Source of the DNA: an uncultured Bifidobacteriaceae bacterium
GTDB lineage: Bacteria; Bacteroidota; Bacteroidia; UKL13-3
Length of the DNA stretch: 64,000 nucleotides
Direction of reading: 5' to 3'
NCBI GenBank assembly: GCA_964392775.1
Contig: CAYMRD010000011.1
Location: forward strand, 40,410-104,409
In this document: one piece after another, positions 1,861 to 54,833 of the stretch
How positions within the stretch are numbered: the stretch's first letter is position 1
Layout of the letters: each line of letters starts with the position of its first letter
Notes under the pieces: model-generated
The model's database searches: none
What the model saw: the letters and a program-made list of their open reading frames with translations, nothing else
What the model was told of the DNA's origin: nothing
Made by a program: the position numbers and the translations under genes

Positions 1861-3063
1861 TTATTCAATAACGAGCTTACCGTTTATTCCAGATTGGGTT
1901 TTGTAGATATAAATCCCTTTAGGCAAAACAGAAACGTCAATAGTGTTTAATCCTGAATGGATTTGATTTGTTAATACGTTTTGTCCCATCAAATTGTAAA
2001 ATGCGATTGTTTCGGTTGTAAACTCAGGTGTTGCCTCTATTGTGATTATAGAAGTGGCCGGGTTTGGATAAACAGCCAACCGGGTGGTTTGGGATGTTTG
2101 GTTTTGAATGCCGGTATACGTGATGAAGTCGCTATATACTTCTTTTATCTGATTGATATAATAACCGGAGTCCTGGTTAAACCATTGGTTTATTCGCTGC
2201 ACCATAGCTCCGTCATTGTTATAGGTGATTAAATTTTTGTTGCCACTGCTTTTTGTCCAGTTTGTACCATCCCAATCTTCACTGTAATATTCTGTTTCAT
2301 TGTTATGGCTGTCATACGTGTATACCACACGACTCTCTAGAACATATAGGGAGTCTGCCCATCTGTAAAGATCTATCTTCGACAGCAGACTCAACTCCAA
2401 ATCGTTCGACCATTGATGCCACTGAATATTGCTATACCGCTCAGATTGTACAAATTGAAGGATTTCTTCATCCCAATACATTATTTCTACTTCTGTAGGT
2501 TCTCCGTTATTGTTGTAAGTAAAATACATCCGGGAGTCGTTTTGGTAAGTGGTGTCGGAAACCCAATATTCGCTTGTTAATTGTGAAAGCTGGTTTTGGT
2601 TATTATAAACATTTGTATTTCTGGTTGCGTCTAAAATTTCCCAAATGCCATTGTTGTATTGCGAGGACATGTAAGATGTTGAATTTCCATTTACATCATA
2701 CGTGTTAGTGCGTAAAAACGCAGAATCCCAAGTTTCAGTTTGGCCGTTAAAGATTAGAGAGAGGTGTTGAATCTCATGTCCTTTGGCATCATAGGAATAT
2801 TTGTTCTTATTATACGTTGTATTCTCTTCGATCAGTCGACCATGTGAATCGTAAACATTGTGGCTGGTATCCGTATGTTCTGTCCAATCATTTATACCAC
2901 TGCTCCACCAATTACGAAGGGTCAATTGAGGAAGGTATTGGGTAGTGGTTTTAGTGAATCCAATACTTGGCTGATGTTTAACCTTTGCAAAGGGTTTAGG
3001 TCTTGCGGAGGTTTGCTGCAAACCAAGTCCGAGTAAAGATAATAGTAGAATTTTTGTTTTCAT
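1861..3063 (-). CDS. Secreted protein with T9SS C-terminal sorting domain
   Basis: Signal peptide MKTKILLLSLLGLGLQQTSA. C-terminus has VYPNPATSIITIEA...GIYIYKTQ, the Por secretion tail. Confidence 0.75.
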   Translation of the reverse strand: MKTKILLLSLLGLGLQQTSARPKPFAKVKHQPSIGFTKTTTQYLPQLTLRNWWSSGINDWTEHTDTSHNVYDSHGRLIEENTTYNKNKYSYDAKGHEIQHLSLIFNGQTETWDSAFLRTNTYDVNGNSTSYMSSQYNNGIWEILDATRNTNVYNNQNQLSQLTSEYWVSDTTYQNDSRMYFTYNNNGEPTEVEIMYWDEEILQFVQSERYSNIQWHQWSNDLELSLLSKIDLYRWADSLYVLESRVVYTYDSHNNETEYYSEDWDGTNWTKSSGNKNLITYNNDGAMVQRINQWFNQDSGYYINQIKEVYSDFITYTGIQNQTSQTTRLAVYPNPATSIITIEATPEFTTETIAFYNLMGQNVLTNQIHSGLNTIDVSVLPKGIYIYKTQSGINGKLVIE

Positions 3064-3106
3064 ATTGTATGTGATTAAATTAGGTAGTGAAATATACAGT
3101 TAAATA

Positions 3107-3330
3107 ATGGTGATGTTGTAATATAGTGTTAATAATTCATTCAATGTATATCCGCAAGTGTTCCCAAATGCATATTTGGCACGGCTTTGTGGCGAGAGAT
3201 CTTTGCCACTAAGCCAAAGGGGCTCAAAGTATCACTAAGTTTAAATTCTACTGGTAAGCTTGCAGATATACACTTCATTTTATCCATTTAATTTGTGGAA
3301 ATTTTCTCTCAACACACTTTTACAACATAT
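3107..3330 (-). repeat. Copy 1 of a ~220-bp structured element (inverted paralogue of 25328-25545, ~95% identical), immediately upstream of the minus-strand T9SS gene
   Basis: Reverse complement aligns base-for-base with 25328-25545, with about 12 mismatches. Contains 15-bp terminal inverted repeats and internal hairpins. Confidence 0.8.
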
Positions 3331-3444
3331 AAAATAACAAAATCACCTGGATTGAGTCAGGAGGTATAAACAATAAAATCCTGTACATTTGCAGCTTAAA
3401 TAATTTCAATCATCAGGGCTATTTACCCTGTAATGTTTTGACCA

Positions 3445-4548: not shown

Positions 4549-4556
4549 TACCAATA

Positions 4557-4608
4557 GACTGAAGACTGAAGACTGAAGACTAAAGACTAAAGACTGAAGA
4601 CTAAAGAT
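4557..4608 (+). repeat. Tandem heptamer array (GACTGAA/GACTAAA) x7.4, starting 9 nt after the mnmA stop
   Basis: Direct reading gives gactgaa x3, gactaaa x2, gactgaa, gactaaa, then gat. Confidence 0.9.
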
Positions 4609-9757: not shown

Positions 9758-10252
9758 TTACAGCAACTCTTCAATGGCTTTGCAAACTCTGTCGGAGGTA
9801 GGTTTGGTAAACGGGAAGAAATAATCAACTACTTCGCCTTTACGGTTAATGAGGTATTTGTGGAAGTTCCAGCGGGGAGTGCTGTTGAGTTTCCCATTGA
9901 GTTTTTTGCTGGCTAAAAACTGAAACAGGGGATGTGCATTTGCACCTTTGATGGTCACTTTTTCAAAAACAGGAAAGGTGGTTCGGAACTGCGACTCGCA
10001 AAATTCTTCCAATTCTTTTCCTGTGAGGGGTTCCTGCTTACCAAAATCGTTTGAGGGGAACGCCAATACCGAAAACCCCTGGTCGCGGTAGGTACGGTAC
10101 AAGGTTTCCAATTGGGCATATTGAGGTGTAAATCCACATTCGGAAGCAGTGTTCACAATCAGCAAAACCTTATCTTTAAAGGTGCTGATGGGAACTGTCT
10201 GGCCTTCAATGTGAATAGCTTCGAACGAATAGATATTGGGTACTTTTTTCAT
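9758..10252 (-). CDS. gpx: Glutathione peroxidase (Cys type)
   Basis: VLLIVNTASECGFTPQY and FPSNDFGKQEP motifs. Start trimmed to MKKVPNIY at 10252. Confidence 0.85.
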   Translation of the reverse strand: MKKVPNIYSFEAIHIEGQTVPISTFKDKVLLIVNTASECGFTPQYAQLETLYRTYRDQGFSVLAFPSNDFGKQEPLTGKELEEFCESQFRTTFPVFEKVTIKGANAHPLFQFLASKKLNGKLNSTPRWNFHKYLINRKGEVVDYFFPFTKPTSDRVCKAIEELL

Positions 10253-10790: not shown

Positions 10791-10906
10791 ATTTTTATTG
10801 CACATTGTTTGTTTTAAACGTTATGCCCGCGTGAGCGATTGCAGCGGAAATCCTTTTGCGTTGGGCTTGCAGGTAAGGAGCAAAAGATTTGAGCGAAAAG
10901 CGCGAC

Positions 10907-10972
10907 CCTGCAAGGATGTGCCACTACTTTGCCTTTTGATTAACCGAAATGCTGCTGCACATCCTTGCAGGG
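10907..10972 (+). other. Perfect 16-bp inverted repeat (ccctgcaaggatgtgc / gcacatccttgcaggg) with a 35-nt loop, 100 bp upstream of ccmC
   Basis: Arms at 10907-10922 and 10957-10972 are exact reverse complements. Confidence 0.85.
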
Positions 10973-18616: not shown

Positions 18617-18809
18617 ACAGACGACACCATTTCGTGTCTTTCTTCCTCATTAAAATTTGTGGCCTTCGTGTACAAGTCTAATACTCTTTTTTTTGTACAC
18701 GGACACTAAAAGGAAGAAAGATGAAAGACTACGAATAAAGTTCTAATTGACAGACGACCATGCTTCGTGCCTTTCTTCCTCATTAAAATTTGTGGCCTTC
18801 GTGTACAAG
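18617..18809 (+). repeat. Two direct 60-bp repeats (18617-18676, 18750-18809, ~88% identical) with a degenerate inverted copy between them (18686-18735)
   Basis: acagacgacacc...cattaaaatttgtggccttcgtgtacaag occurs twice. The middle segment ttttgtacacggacactaaaaggaagaaag is a partial reverse complement. Confidence 0.8.
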
Positions 18810-21777: not shown

Positions 21778-22743
21778 TTGGAATTTATGTCAAATACTCC
21801 CGAAAAAATTGAATGTTTAATCATTGGCAGCGGACCTGCCGGTTATACTGCTGCGATTTATGCTGCCAGAGCTGATATGAAACCTGTAGTTTATGCGGGT
21901 ATGCAACCCGGTGGTCAGTTGACCATCACCACTGATGTGGAAAATTATCCGGGTTATCCTGATGGAATCATGGGTCCTGAAATGATGGAAAACTTCCGCA
22001 AACAAGCCGAACGCTTGGGTGCTGATATTCGTTACGGGATGGTTACAAAGGTTGATTTTACAGGAAAACCACCCTATAAAGTTATTGTGGATGAAAAACA
22101 GGAAATCCTTGCCGAAACAGTAATCATTTCAACCGGAGCATCGGCTAAATGGTTGGGTATACCTTCCGAAGAAAAACTGAATGGATATGGTGTTTCAGCT
22201 TGTGCTGTATGTGACGGATTTTTCTTCCGCGGTAAAGATGTAGCCATTGTTGGAGCTGGTGATACCGCTTGTGAAGAGGCCAGCTACCTTGCCAAAATAT
22301 GTAACAAAGTATACATGATTGTACGCAGAGATGAGTTCCGCGCCAGCAAAGCCATGCAGCACCGTGTGATGAATACACCCAATATTGAGGTGTTGTTTAA
22401 CAGTGAAACAGATGAGATTTTAGGTGAAACCAAAGTGGAAGGAGCCCGAATCAAAAACAATCAAACCGGAGATGCCAAAGAAATCAGCATTCAGGGATTT
22501 TTTGTGGCAATTGGTCACCAGCCGAATACCGAAATTTTCAAACCATATATTACTATGGATGAAACCGGTTATATCATTACCCAGCCTGATTCTTCAAAAA
22601 CCAATGTAGAGGGCGTGTTTGCCTGTGGCGATGCGCAGGATAAAATTTACCGTCAGGCTGTTACAGCTGCAGGAAGCGGATGTATGGCAGCCTTGGATGC
22701 CGAACGTTACCTGTCGGCTAAACACCATGCCGCGGCTCATTAA
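21778..22743 (+). CDS. trxB: Thioredoxin-disulfide reductase
   Basis: FAD motif IIGSGPAGYTAAIYAAR, redox-active CAVCDG, and an NADPH motif. Confidence 0.9.
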   Translation: MEFMSNTPEKIECLIIGSGPAGYTAAIYAARADMKPVVYAGMQPGGQLTITTDVENYPGYPDGIMGPEMMENFRKQAERLGADIRYGMVTKVDFTGKPPYKVIVDEKQEILAETVIISTGASAKWLGIPSEEKLNGYGVSACAVCDGFFFRGKDVAIVGAGDTACEEASYLAKICNKVYMIVRRDEFRASKAMQHRVMNTPNIEVLFNSETDEILGETKVEGARIKNNQTGDAKEISIQGFFVAIGHQPNTEIFKPYITMDETGYIITQPDSSKTNVEGVFACGDAQDKIYRQAVTAAGSGCMAALDAERYLSAKHHAAAH

Positions 22744-22758
22744 TTAAAAATAAATGAC

Positions 22759-22856
22759 TATCGGGATATTGCCCCCCTGCCCCCTGCCCCTGGCGGGGAC
22801 TAGCCGCACACTTTCTAAAAGACTTTAGGGTTAGGGGGCAGGGGGCAATATTCCGA
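22759..22856 (+). repeat. Long GC-rich palindromic element: 24-bp arms (atcgggatattgccccctgccccc / gggggcagggggcaatattccgat, 23/24 paired) around a 50-nt loop that contains the ccgcacactttctaaaagac core
   Basis: Direct reading. It overlaps the first ATG of the downstream ORF. Confidence 0.8.
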
Positions 22857-22876
22857 TGGTCAGTAAAAATAAATCT

Positions 22877-23722
22877 ATGAAATATATTTTGGTATGGGTT
22901 GCTCTGGCAGCAGCCCAAATAAGTATCGCACAACGTAACTGTTGTTCTGTTAACAATGTAACCATGAACAATGCTGCATTGGCCATGAATGATGCCTTTG
23001 TGCAAGCCCATGCCGAACCTAAAGCCTTTACCCTCGAAAATCCTAAAGGGGAGATGGTGGAGTTTGCTACAACTGATGGTAAAATGGCTAAGGCTTACTT
23101 GATTAAGCCGGCCCGCAAAAGCAAAAAATACCTGTTTGTGTTTCACGAATGGTGGGGATTGAATGACTATATCAAAAAAGAAGCAGAGCAATATGCGGCC
23201 GATTTAAAAGATGTAAATGTACTGGCTATTGATTTGTACGATGGACAGGCTGCTACAACCCGGGAAGATGCAGCAAAACTCATGGGTGCAATGACGGATG
23301 CCCGGGCACGGGCGATTGTGAACGGAGCCTTGACCTTTGCCGGAAAAAAAGCAATGGTAGCCACAACAGGTTGGTGTATGGGCGGAGCCTGGAGCTTGCA
23401 AACAGCTATTGAAGGACAGCAAAAAGTGGTAGGATGTGTGATGTATTACGGGTTTCCGGAGATGAATGTAGAAAAGCTAAAACTGTTGCAAACAGATATT
23501 CTCGGTATTTTTGCCGAGAAAGATGCTTTCATCAATGTTGAAACAGTAAAGGAGTTTGAAGGAAAAGTGAAAGAAGCAGGGAAAAGCATTACAGTATACA
23601 ACTATGTTGCAGTTCATGCTTTTGCCAATCCGAGCAATCCTGATTATAATGCACAGGCAACGAAAGAAGCTTATGACAACAAGGTGCTTCCGTATTTAAA
23701 AGCCCGTCTTAAAGTAAAATAA
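22877..23722 (+). CDS. Dienelactone hydrolase family protein (secreted)
   Basis: FHEWWGLNDY motif, nucleophile context GWCMGGAW, and a signal peptide. Start trimmed to MKYIL to clear the palindrome. Confidence 0.7.
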   Translation: MKYILVWVALAAAQISIAQRNCCSVNNVTMNNAALAMNDAFVQAHAEPKAFTLENPKGEMVEFATTDGKMAKAYLIKPARKSKKYLFVFHEWWGLNDYIKKEAEQYAADLKDVNVLAIDLYDGQAATTREDAAKLMGAMTDARARAIVNGALTFAGKKAMVATTGWCMGGAWSLQTAIEGQQKVVGCVMYYGFPEMNVEKLKLLQTDILGIFAEKDAFINVETVKEFEGKVKEAGKSITVYNYVAVHAFANPSNPDYNAQATKEAYDNKVLPYLKARLKVK

Positions 23723-25297: not shown

Positions 25298-25327
25298 TAC
25301 AAACTATCTTCGATGAAAAATAAACGA

Positions 25328-25545
25328 CATGTTGTAAAAGAGTGTTGAGAGAAAATTGCCACAAATTAAATGGATAAAATGAAGTGTATATCTGCAAGCT
25401 TACCAGTAGAATTTAAACTTAGTGATACTTTGAGCCTTCGTGGCTTAGTGGCAAAGAACTCTCGCCACAAAGCCGTGCCAAATATACATTTGGGAACACT
25501 TGCGGATATACATTGAATGAATCATCAACACTATCATTACAACAT
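25328..25545 (+). repeat. Copy 2 of the ~220-bp structured element, ending 14 nt before the rsmG ATG
   Basis: ~95% identical to the reverse complement of 3107-3330. TIRs gtgtatatctgcaag / cttgcggatatacat. Internal hairpins ggcttagtggc...gccacaaagcc and ccaaatatacatttgg. Contains tacatttg, a TAnnTTTG match. Confidence 0.8.
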
Positions 25546-25559
25546 CACCAAAATAAACA

Positions 25560-26192
25560 ATGGATATTCTGCTCAAGTACTTTCCCGATTTAACCGGAAA
25601 GCAACAGCAACAATTTGAAGCTGCTTTTAACACATACAAAGAGTGGAACGAAAAAATCAATGTTGTATCACGTAAAGACATTGATTCGTTATTCGAAAAA
25701 CATATTCTCCACTCGCTGGCCATAGCCAAATTTGTTCAGTTTCGCCCCGATACTCATGTGCTGGATATTGGCACGGGAGGCGGATTTCCGGGTATTCCGT
25801 TGAGTATTATGTTTCCCGAAACAAACTTTACACTTTGCGATTCAATCGCTAAAAAAATCAAAGTTGCCGAAACGGTTTCCGAAACCATCGGGTTGATGAA
25901 TACTGATTTTGTGATTGGCAGGGTAGAGCAGCTCAAAGAAAGTTTCGACTTTATTGTGAGCCGTGCCGTTGCTCCCTGTGAGCAGCTATACCGCTGGACA
26001 CAGCATTATATCAACGAAGAAAACAATAACCCTAAGTTTAATGGTTACTTGTTACTTAAAGGAGGTGATTTAAAAGAAGAGATTAAAGCCCTGCGCCAAA
26101 TCAATAAAAAATTGATTGTTGAAGAGTTTGCTTTGAGCCAGTGGTTTGAAGAAGAATTTTTTGAAACAAAAAAGCTGGTGTATATCTATTAA
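25560..26192 (+). CDS. rsmG: 16S rRNA (guanine527-N7)-methyltransferase RsmG
   Basis: GidB-family N-terminus and SAM motif DIGTGGGFPGIPL. Confidence 0.85.
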   Translation: MDILLKYFPDLTGKQQQQFEAAFNTYKEWNEKINVVSRKDIDSLFEKHILHSLAIAKFVQFRPDTHVLDIGTGGGFPGIPLSIMFPETNFTLCDSIAKKIKVAETVSETIGLMNTDFVIGRVEQLKESFDFIVSRAVAPCEQLYRWTQHYINEENNNPKFNGYLLLKGGDLKEEIKALRQINKKLIVEEFALSQWFEEEFFETKKLVYIY

Positions 26193-52215: not shown

Positions 52216-52288
52216 TTCATTCACTTCTTAATACTTCAGTCTTTCTTCTTTTTTCTTAAATCTTTCCTCTTAAATCTTACATCCATCT

Positions 52289-54439: not shown

Positions 54440-54833
54440 TGTAATACTTTGTACACGAAGACACGAAATCTGAATAAAGAGGAAAGGCACTAAGTATTGC
54501 CATCAAAAAAGACACGCCTTGTCCTGATGTTGTAACTGTCACACTGAGTTTATCGAAGTGTGCATAGGTGGGGAATATTCAATTCTTGGCGGGCTCCGGA
54601 GGAGCCTAATCTCTCTATAAAAACCAAACCCAGGGTATTCGCGCTCCGTAGGTGCGCAATCGCAATACAATGTTTTCTGTTTTTTAGAAATAGGAAGAAG
54701 AAAGGTTTCGCTCCTCTGGAGCTCCTGTCTTTTACGTGGTTTAATGGGCTATAGAGATTGACCTCATCAGGAGGCGGATGCTACCATTTAAGCACTCATT
54801 CTTAGTGTTATTAAATTGCTCTTCTCCCGATAG
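54440..54833. repeat. 390-bp non-coding convergent spacer dense in hairpins, carrying a copy of the tttgtacacgaag...acacgaaat repeat family
   Basis: 54447-54480 matches the 18.6-kb repeat arms. Hairpins ggctccggaggagcc, gcgctccgtaggtgcgc, gctcctctggagc, cccgatagttatcggg. Confidence 0.6.

What the first reader, a model, noticed from the sequence alone, without database searches (positions are those of the whole stretch)
3107..3330. A ~220-bp structured element present twice in opposite orientation, each copy directly upstream of an unrelated gene
The reverse complement of 3107-3330 aligns base-for-base with 25328-25545 at about 95% identity. Similarity continues to within 15-45 nt of the two start codons: the minus-strand T9SS cargo gene starting at 3063, and rsmG at 25560. 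Each copy is therefore in the same orientation relative to its downstream gene. Unrelated downstream genes with a shared, well-preserved non-coding leader suggest a mobile promoter/leader cassette, a cis-regulatory RNA, or a MITE. As a 220-bp inverted repeat pair 22 kb apart, it is also a substrate for homologous inversion of the mnmA-ccm-uvrC-trxB block.
Basis: seen in the sequence. Interest (0 to 1): 0.65.

Follow-up and report, generated by a model that had tools for sequence, protein, structure and literature searches.

The report
Small foldback mobile-element-like repeat, two copies
A non-coding, hairpin-forming DNA element of about 222 bp sits in two gene-upstream spacers of a freshwater Bacteroidota genome where related genomes have nothing, so it is most likely an ordinary miniature transposable element (MITE) from an undescribed family, not a conserved regulatory RNA.

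Summary
The repeat is real. Window 3108-3328 (minus strand) and 25329-25550 (plus strand) align over 222 nt at 95.0% identity (E about 1e-98), and the window holds no other copy.

The element is a foldback with imperfect terminal inverted repeats (ATGTTGTAA-N4/5-GTGTTGA). It has no Rfam match. Its only ORF (48 aa) has no homologue.

Insertion evidence:
- GT-rsmG gene order is kept in 11 related lineages. Nine have an 18-69 nt spacer, against 262 nt here.
- Copy B is flanked by a perfect 9-bp direct repeat, AAAATAAAC (p about 0.005).
- Three relatives lack copy A upstream of mnmA.

The best reading is a lineage-specific MITE-like insertion (confidence 0.6). Copy B lies between rsmG's ancestral -7-like promoter box and its start codon. 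rsmG must therefore be transcribed through the element or from within it; this step is inferred.

Weak points:
- Only two copies are known.
- No parent IS or transposase was found.
- Copy A has no convincing target-site duplication.
- The rest of the genome could not be searched.
- Pattern scans of genome, metagenome, viral, plasmid and phage collections found no relative.

A conserved cis-regulatory RNA and an invertible promoter are not supported. This is a new member of a known kind, of low interest.

The parts
3109..3331 (-). Copy A of the element. The core is 3109-3328, plus 3 non-conserved bases at 3329-3331 (TAT on the minus strand) next to the left terminal repeat.
   Evidence: blastn 222 nt at 95% identity to copy B; alignment A2; variant table.
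25326..25549 (+). Copy B of the element. GAC (25326-25328) is followed by the core 25329-25549, which ends in CACC.
25329..25348 (+). Left terminal inverted repeat of copy B: ATGTTGTAA (25329-25337), a 4-nt spacer, then GTGTTGA (25342-25348). The equivalent in copy A is 3328-3309 on the minus strand.
   Evidence: Pairs with 25525-25545 in the MFE and consensus folds. A regex scan finds these blocks only at the four element ends.
25525..25549 (+). Right terminal inverted repeat of copy B: TCAACAC (25525-25531), a 5-nt spacer, TTACAACAT (25537-25545), then the shared terminal CACC (25546-25549). The reverse complement of this end reads GGTGATGTTGTAA. The equivalent in copy A is 3132-3109 on the minus strand.
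25317..25325 (+). Left copy of the 9-bp target-site duplication AAAATAAAC at copy B.
   Evidence: Exact 9-mer shared with 25550-25558. Probability 0.005-0.006 under AT-rich and shuffled-flank nulls.
25550..25558 (+). Right copy of the 9-bp target-site duplication AAAATAAAC at copy B, directly after CACC and 1 nt before the rsmG ATG.
   Evidence: sequence.
3102..3107 (+). Possible remnant of a duplication at copy A: AAATAA, also present at 3332-3337. Not significant.
   Evidence: Only a 6-mer is shared, p about 0.08.
25383..25514 (+). Core foldback. A 15-bp stem (25383-25397 with 25500-25514) encloses three local hairpins, including GGCTTAGTGGC...GCCACAAAGCC (25442-25474). The same core in copy A is 3274-3143 on the minus strand.
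   Evidence: MFE and consensus structures. All six differing columns inside the core fall in unpaired positions in both copies.
25485..25492 (+). TACATTTG, a perfect match to the Bacteroidota -7 promoter consensus TAnnTTTG, facing rsmG 68 nt upstream of its ATG. The same site also reads TATATTTG on the other strand. Copy A has TGCATTTG (3172-3165, minus strand), one mismatch.
   Evidence: Motif scan. The consensus itself is from established knowledge, not tested here. A chance occurrence in 222 AT-rich nt is not unlikely (my estimate is about 0.25).
25305..25312 (+). TATCTTCG, the probable ancestral rsmG -7-like box, now separated from the rsmG ATG by the element.
   Evidence: The identical 8-mer lies 4 nt before the rsmG ATG in the closest relative, L092. 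TAnnTT(T/C)G boxes sit in the short spacer of other relatives.
1861..3063 (-). Gene downstream of copy A: a 400-aa protein with a T9SS C-terminal sorting domain.
   Evidence: PF18962 Por_Secre_tail.
25560..26192 (+). Gene downstream of copy B: rsmG (16S rRNA m7G methyltransferase).
   Evidence: PF02527 GidB; 81-92% identical orthologues.
3384..3391 (+). mnmA -7 box TACATTTG. This box and the leader hairpin downstream of it are conserved in relatives and left intact by copy A.

Best explanation
The two copies belong to a small, non-coding, non-autonomous transposable element (MITE-like) of about 221-224 bp, with imperfect terminal inverted repeats and a foldback body. It entered two AT-rich, promoter-proximal spacers in this lineage only. 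The inferred mechanism is that a transposase encoded elsewhere recognises the ATGTTGTAA-N4/5-GTGTTGA ends, cuts and pastes the element, and staggered target cleavage yields the 9-bp duplication seen at copy B. What is shown: the repeat itself, its inverted-repeat ends, its lack of coding capacity, its absence from the orthologous sites of all relatives examined, and the 9-bp flanking direct repeat at B. What is inferred: transposition as the process, the existence of a parent IS, and any effect on expression. Copy B lies between the ancestral rsmG -7-like box and the start codon. rsmG is therefore now read either through a structured leader of about 240 nt or from a promoter-like box inside the element.
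For: - Repeat: two copies, 222 nt, 95% identical, in unrelated spacers 22 kb apart and in opposite orientation.
- Ends: each copy starts with ATGTTGTAA-N4-GTGTTGA and ends with its reverse complement. These blocks occur nowhere else in the window or in 1.57 Mb of loci.
- Target-site duplication: AAAATAAAC occurs exactly on both sides of copy B, p about 0.005.
- Empty sites at B: GT-rsmG gene order is kept in 11 related lineages. The spacer is 18-69 nt in nine of them and carries unrelated sequence in the other two (L011 126 nt, L009 242 nt). The window's spacer is 262 nt. The closest relative (RsmG 92% identical) has an 18-nt spacer that shares the TATCTTCG box.
- Empty sites at A: relatives with MnmA 93%, 91% and 91% identical have 118-156-nt spacers with the same mnmA promoter and leader but no element.
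- Non-coding: the only ORF (48 aa) has no homologue among 5.8 billion proteins, is not called as a gene anywhere, and all its inter-copy differences change the amino acid.
- Not a known RNA: no Rfam family matches even at E up to 10.
- Behaves as a repeat in independent assemblies: short-read contigs from at least four SRA runs break inside the element. At 3 of 4 junctions the break lies exactly 30 nt past the last A/B variant.
Against: - Only two copies are known.
- No copy or relative was found in GTDB representative genomes, JGI metagenome contigs, IMG/VR, PLSDB plasmids, phages, or the fetched loci. The collection scans needed exact 19-22-base pattern matches, so diverged relatives would be missed.
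- No transposase or recombinase is encoded in the 64-kb window, and no parent IS is known.
- Copy A has no significant duplication (6-mer, p about 0.08) and lies on a synteny break.
- The 3 nt between the left duplication and the terminal repeat differ between copies (GAC vs TAT).
- The terminal repeats are short and interrupted (9 + 7 bp).
- The Logan contig breakpoints fit a two-copy model, which argues against a high-copy family at 95% similarity in this genome.
Confidence: 0.6

Rival explanations
1. Exapted mobile promoter or leader cassette. The element is mobile in origin, but it is retained because it supplies an outward Bacteroidota-type promoter or a structured 5' leader to the gene downstream (rsmG, the T9SS cargo gene).
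For: Both copies face their downstream gene. Copy B separates rsmG from its ancestral -7-like box and carries a perfect TAnnTTTG box 68 nt upstream of the ATG. The gene-sense strand folds somewhat better than the antisense strand (-63.5/-65.7 vs -56.7/-61.0 kcal/mol). All three mutational events in the core fall in unpaired positions, p about 0.02.
Against: Same orientation in two copies is a coin toss. The box in copy A has a mismatch at the conserved second position. The cargo gene keeps its own TATATTTC box between the element and its ATG. A TAnnTTTG match by chance in 222 AT-rich nt on two strands is not rare. There are no expression data and no compensatory pair changes.
Confidence: 0.12
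2. Non-transpositional duplication. One copy was made from the other, or from an unseen source, by ectopic recombination, gene conversion or rearrangement, and it is a scar with no mobility of its own.
For: Only two copies are known and no relatives appear in any collection. Copy A sits exactly on a synteny breakpoint: the cargo gene replaces the 144-166-aa gene found upstream of mnmA in three relatives. Copy A also lacks a clear duplication.
Against: Homology ends sharply at inverted-repeat termini at both loci, with no shared flanking sequence. Copy B has an exact 9-bp flanking duplication. The B site is otherwise colinear with relatives.
Confidence: 0.12
3. A structured non-coding RNA gene or cis-regulatory RNA (riboswitch-like leader) present in two paralogous copies.
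For: The predicted fold is strong (z -4.9 and -5.95). Both copies lie in 5' regions. One G-C to G-U change keeps a pair, and the differences avoid the core stems.
Against: The element is absent upstream of rsmG in 11 related lineages and upstream of mnmA in 3. There is no Rfam match. The antisense strand also folds well, as expected for a DNA palindrome. The hairpins are not followed by an intrinsic terminator. No pair shows compensatory change. The downstream genes are functionally unrelated.
Confidence: 0.07
4. Invertible promoter (inverton). The terminal inverted repeats are recombinase sites, and the roughly 180-bp body flips to switch the downstream gene on or off.
For: Short inverted repeats flank a segment of about 200 bp that holds a promoter-like box readable on both strands. 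One copy precedes a surface or secreted-protein gene, a typical phase-variable class in Bacteroidota (from established knowledge).
Against: Flank-anchored contigs from at least four runs all continue 40-60 nt into the element in the window's orientation. They stop where the A/B variants predict, not at the inverted repeat. No recombinase is encoded in the window. A flanking direct repeat points to insertion, not inversion. rsmG is an unlikely phase-variable gene.
Confidence: 0.03

Closest known systems
Bacterial MITEs (e.g. Correia/NEMIS elements of Neisseria, RUP of Streptococcus pneumoniae, MITEs of Porphyromonas gingivalis; PMC4596501; survey in bioRxiv 10.1101/2024.01.18.576219)
   Same: Length of 100-300 bp and no coding capacity. 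Terminal inverted repeats and a foldback secondary structure. Insertion into intergenic, promoter-proximal DNA. A flanking target-site duplication (at copy B). Potential to add promoters or leader structure to neighbouring genes.
   Different: Only two copies have been seen so far, and no cognate IS has been identified. There is no sequence similarity to anything in the searched collections. The terminal repeats are short and split into two blocks. One copy lacks a clear duplication.
IS1-family ends (lead from memory only: IS1 inverted repeats begin GGTGATG/GGTAATG and IS1 makes 8-9-bp duplications)
   Same: The reverse complement of the element's right end begins GGTGATG. Copy B has a 9-bp duplication.
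   Different: The left end does not begin with GG (GAC or TAT precedes ATGTTG). The similarity is only about 7-10 nt. No IS1-type transposase was found. The lead could not be tested against ISfinder with these tools.
ERIC/IRU and other imperfect-palindrome intergenic repeats
   Same: An imperfect palindrome located in transcribed intergenic regions, in either genomic orientation.
   Different: ERIC is about 127 bp and enterobacterial, with no sequence relation to this element. Here there is an insertion signature (a duplication and empty sites in relatives).
Bacteroidota invertible promoters (invertons)
   Same: Inverted repeats bracket about 200 bp upstream of a gene, and the segment holds a promoter-like box.
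   Different: No second orientation appears in independent assemblies. No nearby recombinase is encoded. The element is flanked by a direct duplication. The identical segment is present at an rRNA-methyltransferase gene.

Membership tests
MITE (miniature inverted-repeat transposable element) | Small size (under about 500 bp) and no coding capacity | tested here: met
   221-224 bp. The only ORF (48 aa) has no homologue and is not on record as a gene, and all its inter-copy differences are non-synonymous.
MITE (miniature inverted-repeat transposable element) | Terminal inverted repeats at the exact limits of the repeated unit | tested here: met
   ATGTTGTAA-N4/5-GTGTTGA occurs at both ends of both copies (9/9 plus 6-7/7 bp). 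The left limit of homology coincides with ATGTTG. The right limit lies 4-5 nt beyond the repeat (CACC).
MITE (miniature inverted-repeat transposable element) | Target-site duplication flanking each copy | tested here: inconclusive
   Copy B has an exact 9-bp AAAATAAAC, p about 0.005. Copy A shares only a 6-mer, p about 0.08. Three non-conserved nt lie between the left duplication and the repeat.
MITE (miniature inverted-repeat transposable element) | Absent from the orthologous site in related genomes (empty sites) | tested here: met
   Site B was examined in 11 related lineages and site A in 3. None carries the element. The relatives are too diverged for a base-exact empty site.
MITE (miniature inverted-repeat transposable element) | Multiple dispersed copies in the genome | tested here: inconclusive
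   There are two copies in 64 kb. Logan contig breakpoints fit two copies at 3 of 4 junctions. No copies were found in other collections.
MITE (miniature inverted-repeat transposable element) | A cognate autonomous IS with matching terminal repeats | not testable with these tools
   The window encodes no transposase, and the end pattern is absent from 1.57 Mb of loci and from JGI contigs. Neither ISfinder nor the full genome is available.
Cis-regulatory RNA / riboswitch-like leader | Conserved upstream of orthologous genes across species | tested here: not met
   Absent upstream of rsmG in 11 lineages and upstream of mnmA in 3.
Cis-regulatory RNA / riboswitch-like leader | Covariation supporting a conserved secondary structure | tested here: inconclusive
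   With two sequences there are 69 predicted pairs, none with compensatory change and one with a G-C/G-U change.
Cis-regulatory RNA / riboswitch-like leader | Match to a described RNA family | tested here: not met
   Rfam 15 gives nothing at gathering score and only noise at E up to 10.
Inverton (invertible promoter) | Both orientations present in a population | tested here: not met
   All flank-anchored contigs from at least four SRA runs enter the element in the window's orientation and run well past the inverted repeat. Low-frequency variants could be hidden by the assembler.
Inverton (invertible promoter) | A site-specific recombinase encoded nearby | tested here: not met
   No recombinase or integrase domain was found in the window ORFs scanned or in the Pfam labels of the Logan loci.

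The most novel reading that the evidence does not exclude
This is a previously undescribed MITE family of freshwater UKL13-3-like Bacteroidota whose body carries an outward-facing Bacteroidota promoter (TAnnTTTG). After landing between the rsmG promoter and start codon, the element now provides the promoter and/or a structured leader for a housekeeping rRNA methyltransferase gene, and possibly modulates a T9SS cargo gene. That would be promoter replacement by a mobile cassette.
Probability: 0.15. Interest if true: 0.4.

Novelty: new member of a known kind. Interest (0 to 1): 0.2.

Why it matters
If correct, this adds one more small non-autonomous mobile element family, in a poorly studied freshwater Bacteroidota lineage. 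Practical points:
- The element breaks short-read assemblies at both loci.
- It marks a synteny breakpoint next to mnmA.
- It has displaced the native promoter of rsmG, so expression of that gene must now depend on read-through of the element or on a promoter inside it.
- The inverted pair could mediate inversion of the intervening 22 kb, but nothing shows that it has.

None of this changes current understanding of MITEs.

Tried and rejected
- Rfam at gathering and permissive thresholds returned only noise.
- Exact-pattern scans with the central hairpin found nothing: GTDB genomes 0 hits, JGI metagenome contigs 0 hits.
- Scans with the left terminal repeat gave 2 chance hits in JGI contigs with no extended similarity and 0 in IMG/VR.
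- blastn in 'distant' mode against plasmids and phages gave only 40-nt noise at E 0.7.
- nhmmer with a two-copy profile, and a regex for the terminal repeats, found nothing in 1.57 Mb of fetched loci or the masked window.
- Using the internal 48-aa ORF as a handle on other copies failed: it is not on record as a gene and has no protein homologue.
- Protein coding was rejected for that reason, and because all inter-copy differences within the ORF change the amino acid.
- DGR template/variable repeats, retron ncRNA, group II intron remnants and IS200/IS605-type elements were considered from anatomy and rejected. The substitutions are not adenine-specific, there is no adjacent RT, TnpA or TnpB gene, and there is no shared target motif at one end.
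- The argument that variable positions avoid paired positions is not significant for the whole element once ascertainment is allowed for: 4 of 8 events touch a position paired in at least one copy. It is only suggestive for the core (3 of 3 events unpaired, p about 0.02).
- The roughly 225-nt foldback in the same spacer of L009 is unrelated in sequence.

Full report
**1. Observation**

The repeat exists as described. MAFFT, the repeat finder (pair I1: 206 nt, 95% complementary) and blastn (222 nt, 95.05%, E 3e-98) all align window 3108-3328 (minus strand) with 25329-25550 (plus strand). Sub-patterns of 23-33 nt have zero expected chance matches. Sensitive blastn, a regex for the termini and an nhmmer profile find no third copy or fragment in the window. 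The copies differ at 11 alignment columns.

One is a 400-aa protein with a T9SS C-terminal sorting domain (1861-3063, minus). The other is rsmG (25560-26192). Copy A ends 45 nt before its downstream start codon and copy B ends 10 nt before its own.

**2. Anatomy**

Each copy begins ATGTTGTAA-N4-GTGTTGA and ends with the reverse complement, T(C/T)AACAC-N4/5-TTACAACAT, followed by a shared CACC. Inside, a 15-bp stem (GTGTATATCTGCAAG with CTTGCGGATATACAT) encloses three local hairpins.

Both strands fold well. The sense strand gives -63.5 and -65.7 kcal/mol and the antisense -56.7 and -61.0. Z-scores are -4.9 and -5.95 for sense against -3.1 for antisense. That is what a DNA foldback gives, and it does not single out an RNA.

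The only ORF (48 aa) is not recorded as a gene anywhere and has no homologue among 5.8 billion proteins. Every difference between the copies inside it changes the amino acid. Rfam 15 has no match at gathering score, and only noise at E up to 10. No intrinsic terminator lies within the element.

**3. Organism and source**

The window's proteins occur with identical sequence in Logan assemblies of SRA runs SRR16797979, SRR16797988, SRR16797999 and SRR16798008. They also occur on an NCBI contig of 109 kb that the tools did not return. The nearest genomes are freshwater Bacteroidota MAGs and 'Bacteroidetes bacterium UKL13-3' (RsmG 81-85% identical). Closer metagenomic relatives reach 92% (RsmG) and 93% (MnmA).

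**4. The element is an insertion specific to this lineage**

*Site B.* The order DLH - BrxC-like - glycosyltransferase - rsmG is conserved in all relatives. Spacer lengths between the glycosyltransferase stop codon and the rsmG start codon:

| Locus | Spacer (nt) |
|---|---|
| L092 (closest relative) | 18 |
| L013, L014, L015 | about 25-27 |
| L097 | 54 |
| L008, L010, L012 | 58-64 |
| L093-L096 (one organism) | 69 |
| L011 (a palindromic terminator) | 126 |
| L009 (an unrelated foldback) | 242 |
| Window | 262 |

Of the window's 262 nt, 224 are the element and 9 are a duplicated target.

L092 reads TAA-TAATCT-TATCTTCG-CACC-ATG. The window reads TAA-TACAAAC-TATCTTCG-ATGAAAAATAAAC-[element]-AAAATAAAC-A-ATG. 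The 8-mer TATCTTCG resembles the Bacteroidota -7 box TAnnTTTG (consensus from established knowledge). Comparable boxes sit in the short spacers of the other relatives.

*Site A.* Three relatives (MnmA 93%, 91% and 91% identical) have 118-156-nt spacers upstream of mnmA. These carry the same TACATTTG box and leader hairpin as the window but no element. In those relatives the divergent neighbour is a 144-166-aa gene, not the T9SS cargo gene. That small gene is absent from the window. Copy A therefore coincides with a synteny breakpoint.

**5. Insertion signature**

Copy B is flanked by an exact 9-bp direct repeat, AAAATAAAC (25317-25325 and 25550-25558). A shared 9-mer in such flanks has probability 0.005-0.006 under AT-rich and shuffled-flank nulls. 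Copy A shares only AAATAA (p about 0.08), which is not convincing. The three bases between the left duplication and ATGTTG differ between copies (GAC vs TAT). These two irregularities, and the position of copy A on a rearrangement boundary, are unexplained.

**6. Copy number and distribution**

No further copy was found in any of the following:
- GTDB representative genomes
- JGI metagenome contigs, with a hairpin pattern and a terminal-repeat pattern
- IMG/VR
- plasmids and phages
- 1.57 Mb of fetched loci

The collection scans require exact matches to 19-22 specified bases, so diverged relatives would be missed. The rest of this genome could not be searched.

There is an indirect handle. Logan contigs (k=31) that enter the element from its unique flanks end at 25388, 3269 and 3164. 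Each is exactly 30 nt past the last base that distinguishes A from B. That is the expectation if no other sequence in those samples shares 31-mers with these ends. The fourth junction (25505 and 25511 instead of 25493) is 12-18 nt short. This could reflect a third variant or assembler trimming. A high-copy family at about 95% identity in this genome is therefore unlikely. Two or a few copies, or more diverged ones, remain possible.

The window encodes no transposase or recombinase (and the Pfam labels).

**7. Best explanation**

The best explanation is a MITE-like non-autonomous element (confidence 0.6). The repeat, the inverted-repeat termini, the non-coding nature, the empty orthologous sites and the 9-bp duplication at B are shown. 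Transposition by a transposase encoded elsewhere, and the existence of a parent IS, are inferred. From memory only: the right end (reverse complement GGTGATG...) and the 9-bp duplication recall IS1-family ends. This is a lead, not a test.

**8. Likely consequences**

At site B the element separates the ancestral -7-like box from rsmG. In the closest relative that box is 4 nt from the ATG, which suggests a leaderless or near-leaderless mRNA. Here transcription from that box would carry a structured leader of about 240 nt. Alternatively, the element's own TACATTTG (25485-25492) could act as a promoter. It is a perfect TAnnTTTG match on both strands and lies 68 nt from the ATG. Copy A has TGCATTTG at that place, and the cargo gene keeps a TATATTTC box between the element and its ATG. 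A chance TAnnTTTG in 222 AT-rich nt is not rare, so this is inference only.

**9. Structure and selection**

In the consensus fold, 10 of 11 variable columns are unpaired and one is a G-C/G-U change. That count is biased, because the consensus excludes pairs that break. Using each copy's own fold, 4 of 8 mutational events touch a position paired in at least one copy, which is not different from chance. Within the core foldback all three events (six columns) are unpaired in both copies. With 71% of core columns paired, that gives p about 0.02, which is suggestive only. No pair shows a compensatory change.

**10. Rivals**

- *Conserved cis-regulatory RNA.* Contradicted by its absence from all relatives and from Rfam.
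- *Inverton.* Contradicted by single-orientation contigs in at least four runs that run past the inverted repeat, by the flanking direct repeat, and by the lack of a recombinase.
- *Non-transpositional duplication scar.* Cannot be excluded, given two copies, a synteny break at A and no duplication at A. It does not explain the sharp inverted-repeat boundaries or the duplication at B.
- *Exapted promoter or leader cassette.* Compatible with the data but untested.

**11. Inversion**

The inverted pair is a possible recombination substrate. However, copy B has the same 9-mer on both sides and the ancestral GT-rsmG junction is intact. The present arrangement is therefore not the product of an A x B inversion after B inserted. 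The gene-order differences from relatives are of another kind: for example, in L009 EamA abuts trxB directly, whereas the window has about 20 kb between them. Coexisting isomers could not be tested.

**12. Verdict**

This is a new member of a known kind, of low interest (0.2). MITEs are widespread in prokaryotes and known in Bacteroidota (bioRxiv 10.1101/2024.01.18.576219; PMC4596501; both listed).

Noticed in passing
window 10821-10911 (+): Flavo-1 RNA motif (Rfam RF01705, 55.7 bits against a gathering score of 42), in the spacer before the cytochrome c maturation (ccm) genes.
   Followed up: no
window 18617-18676, 18750-18809 (+) and 54449-54504 (-): A second short repeat family of about 60 nt at 71-90% identity, with two copies 133 nt apart upstream of uvrC and one inverted copy 36 kb away. 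A Logan contig (L005) begins inside it at 18780, as expected for a repeat.
   Followed up: partly
window 4556-4607: Heptamer tandem array AGACTGA x 7.4 starting 8 nt after the mnmA stop codon. A weakly similar inverted array lies at 52226-52283.
   Followed up: no
window 22737-22783 / 22834-22880: A 47-nt inverted repeat (72% complementary), with G-rich and C-rich ends, between trxB and the dienelactone-hydrolase gene.
   Followed up: no
L009 9759-10000; L011 1867-1900: The same GT-rsmG spacer carries other inserts in two relatives. L009 has an unrelated foldback of about 225 nt with three nested inverted repeats. L011 has a perfect 34-nt palindrome followed by a T run (terminator-like). The spacer may be a recurrent landing site.
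   Followed up: partly
L092 29-46; L013 near 9985-10000: In the closest relatives the rsmG -7-like box ends 4 nt before an ATG, which suggests a leaderless rsmG mRNA in this group.
   Followed up: no
window 1-22743 vs L009 4400-7167: In L009 the periplasmic-binding-protein and EamA genes abut trxB directly. The window has about 20 kb between them (cargo gene, copy A, mnmA, ccm genes, uvrC, a tRNA). One boundary of this block is at copy A.
   Followed up: partly
window 25505 / 25511 (starts of L001 and L002): Logan contigs carrying rsmG start 12-18 nt later than a strict two-copy k=31 model predicts (25493). The other three junctions fit that model exactly. This may hint at a third variant or be an assembler artefact.
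   Followed up: partly
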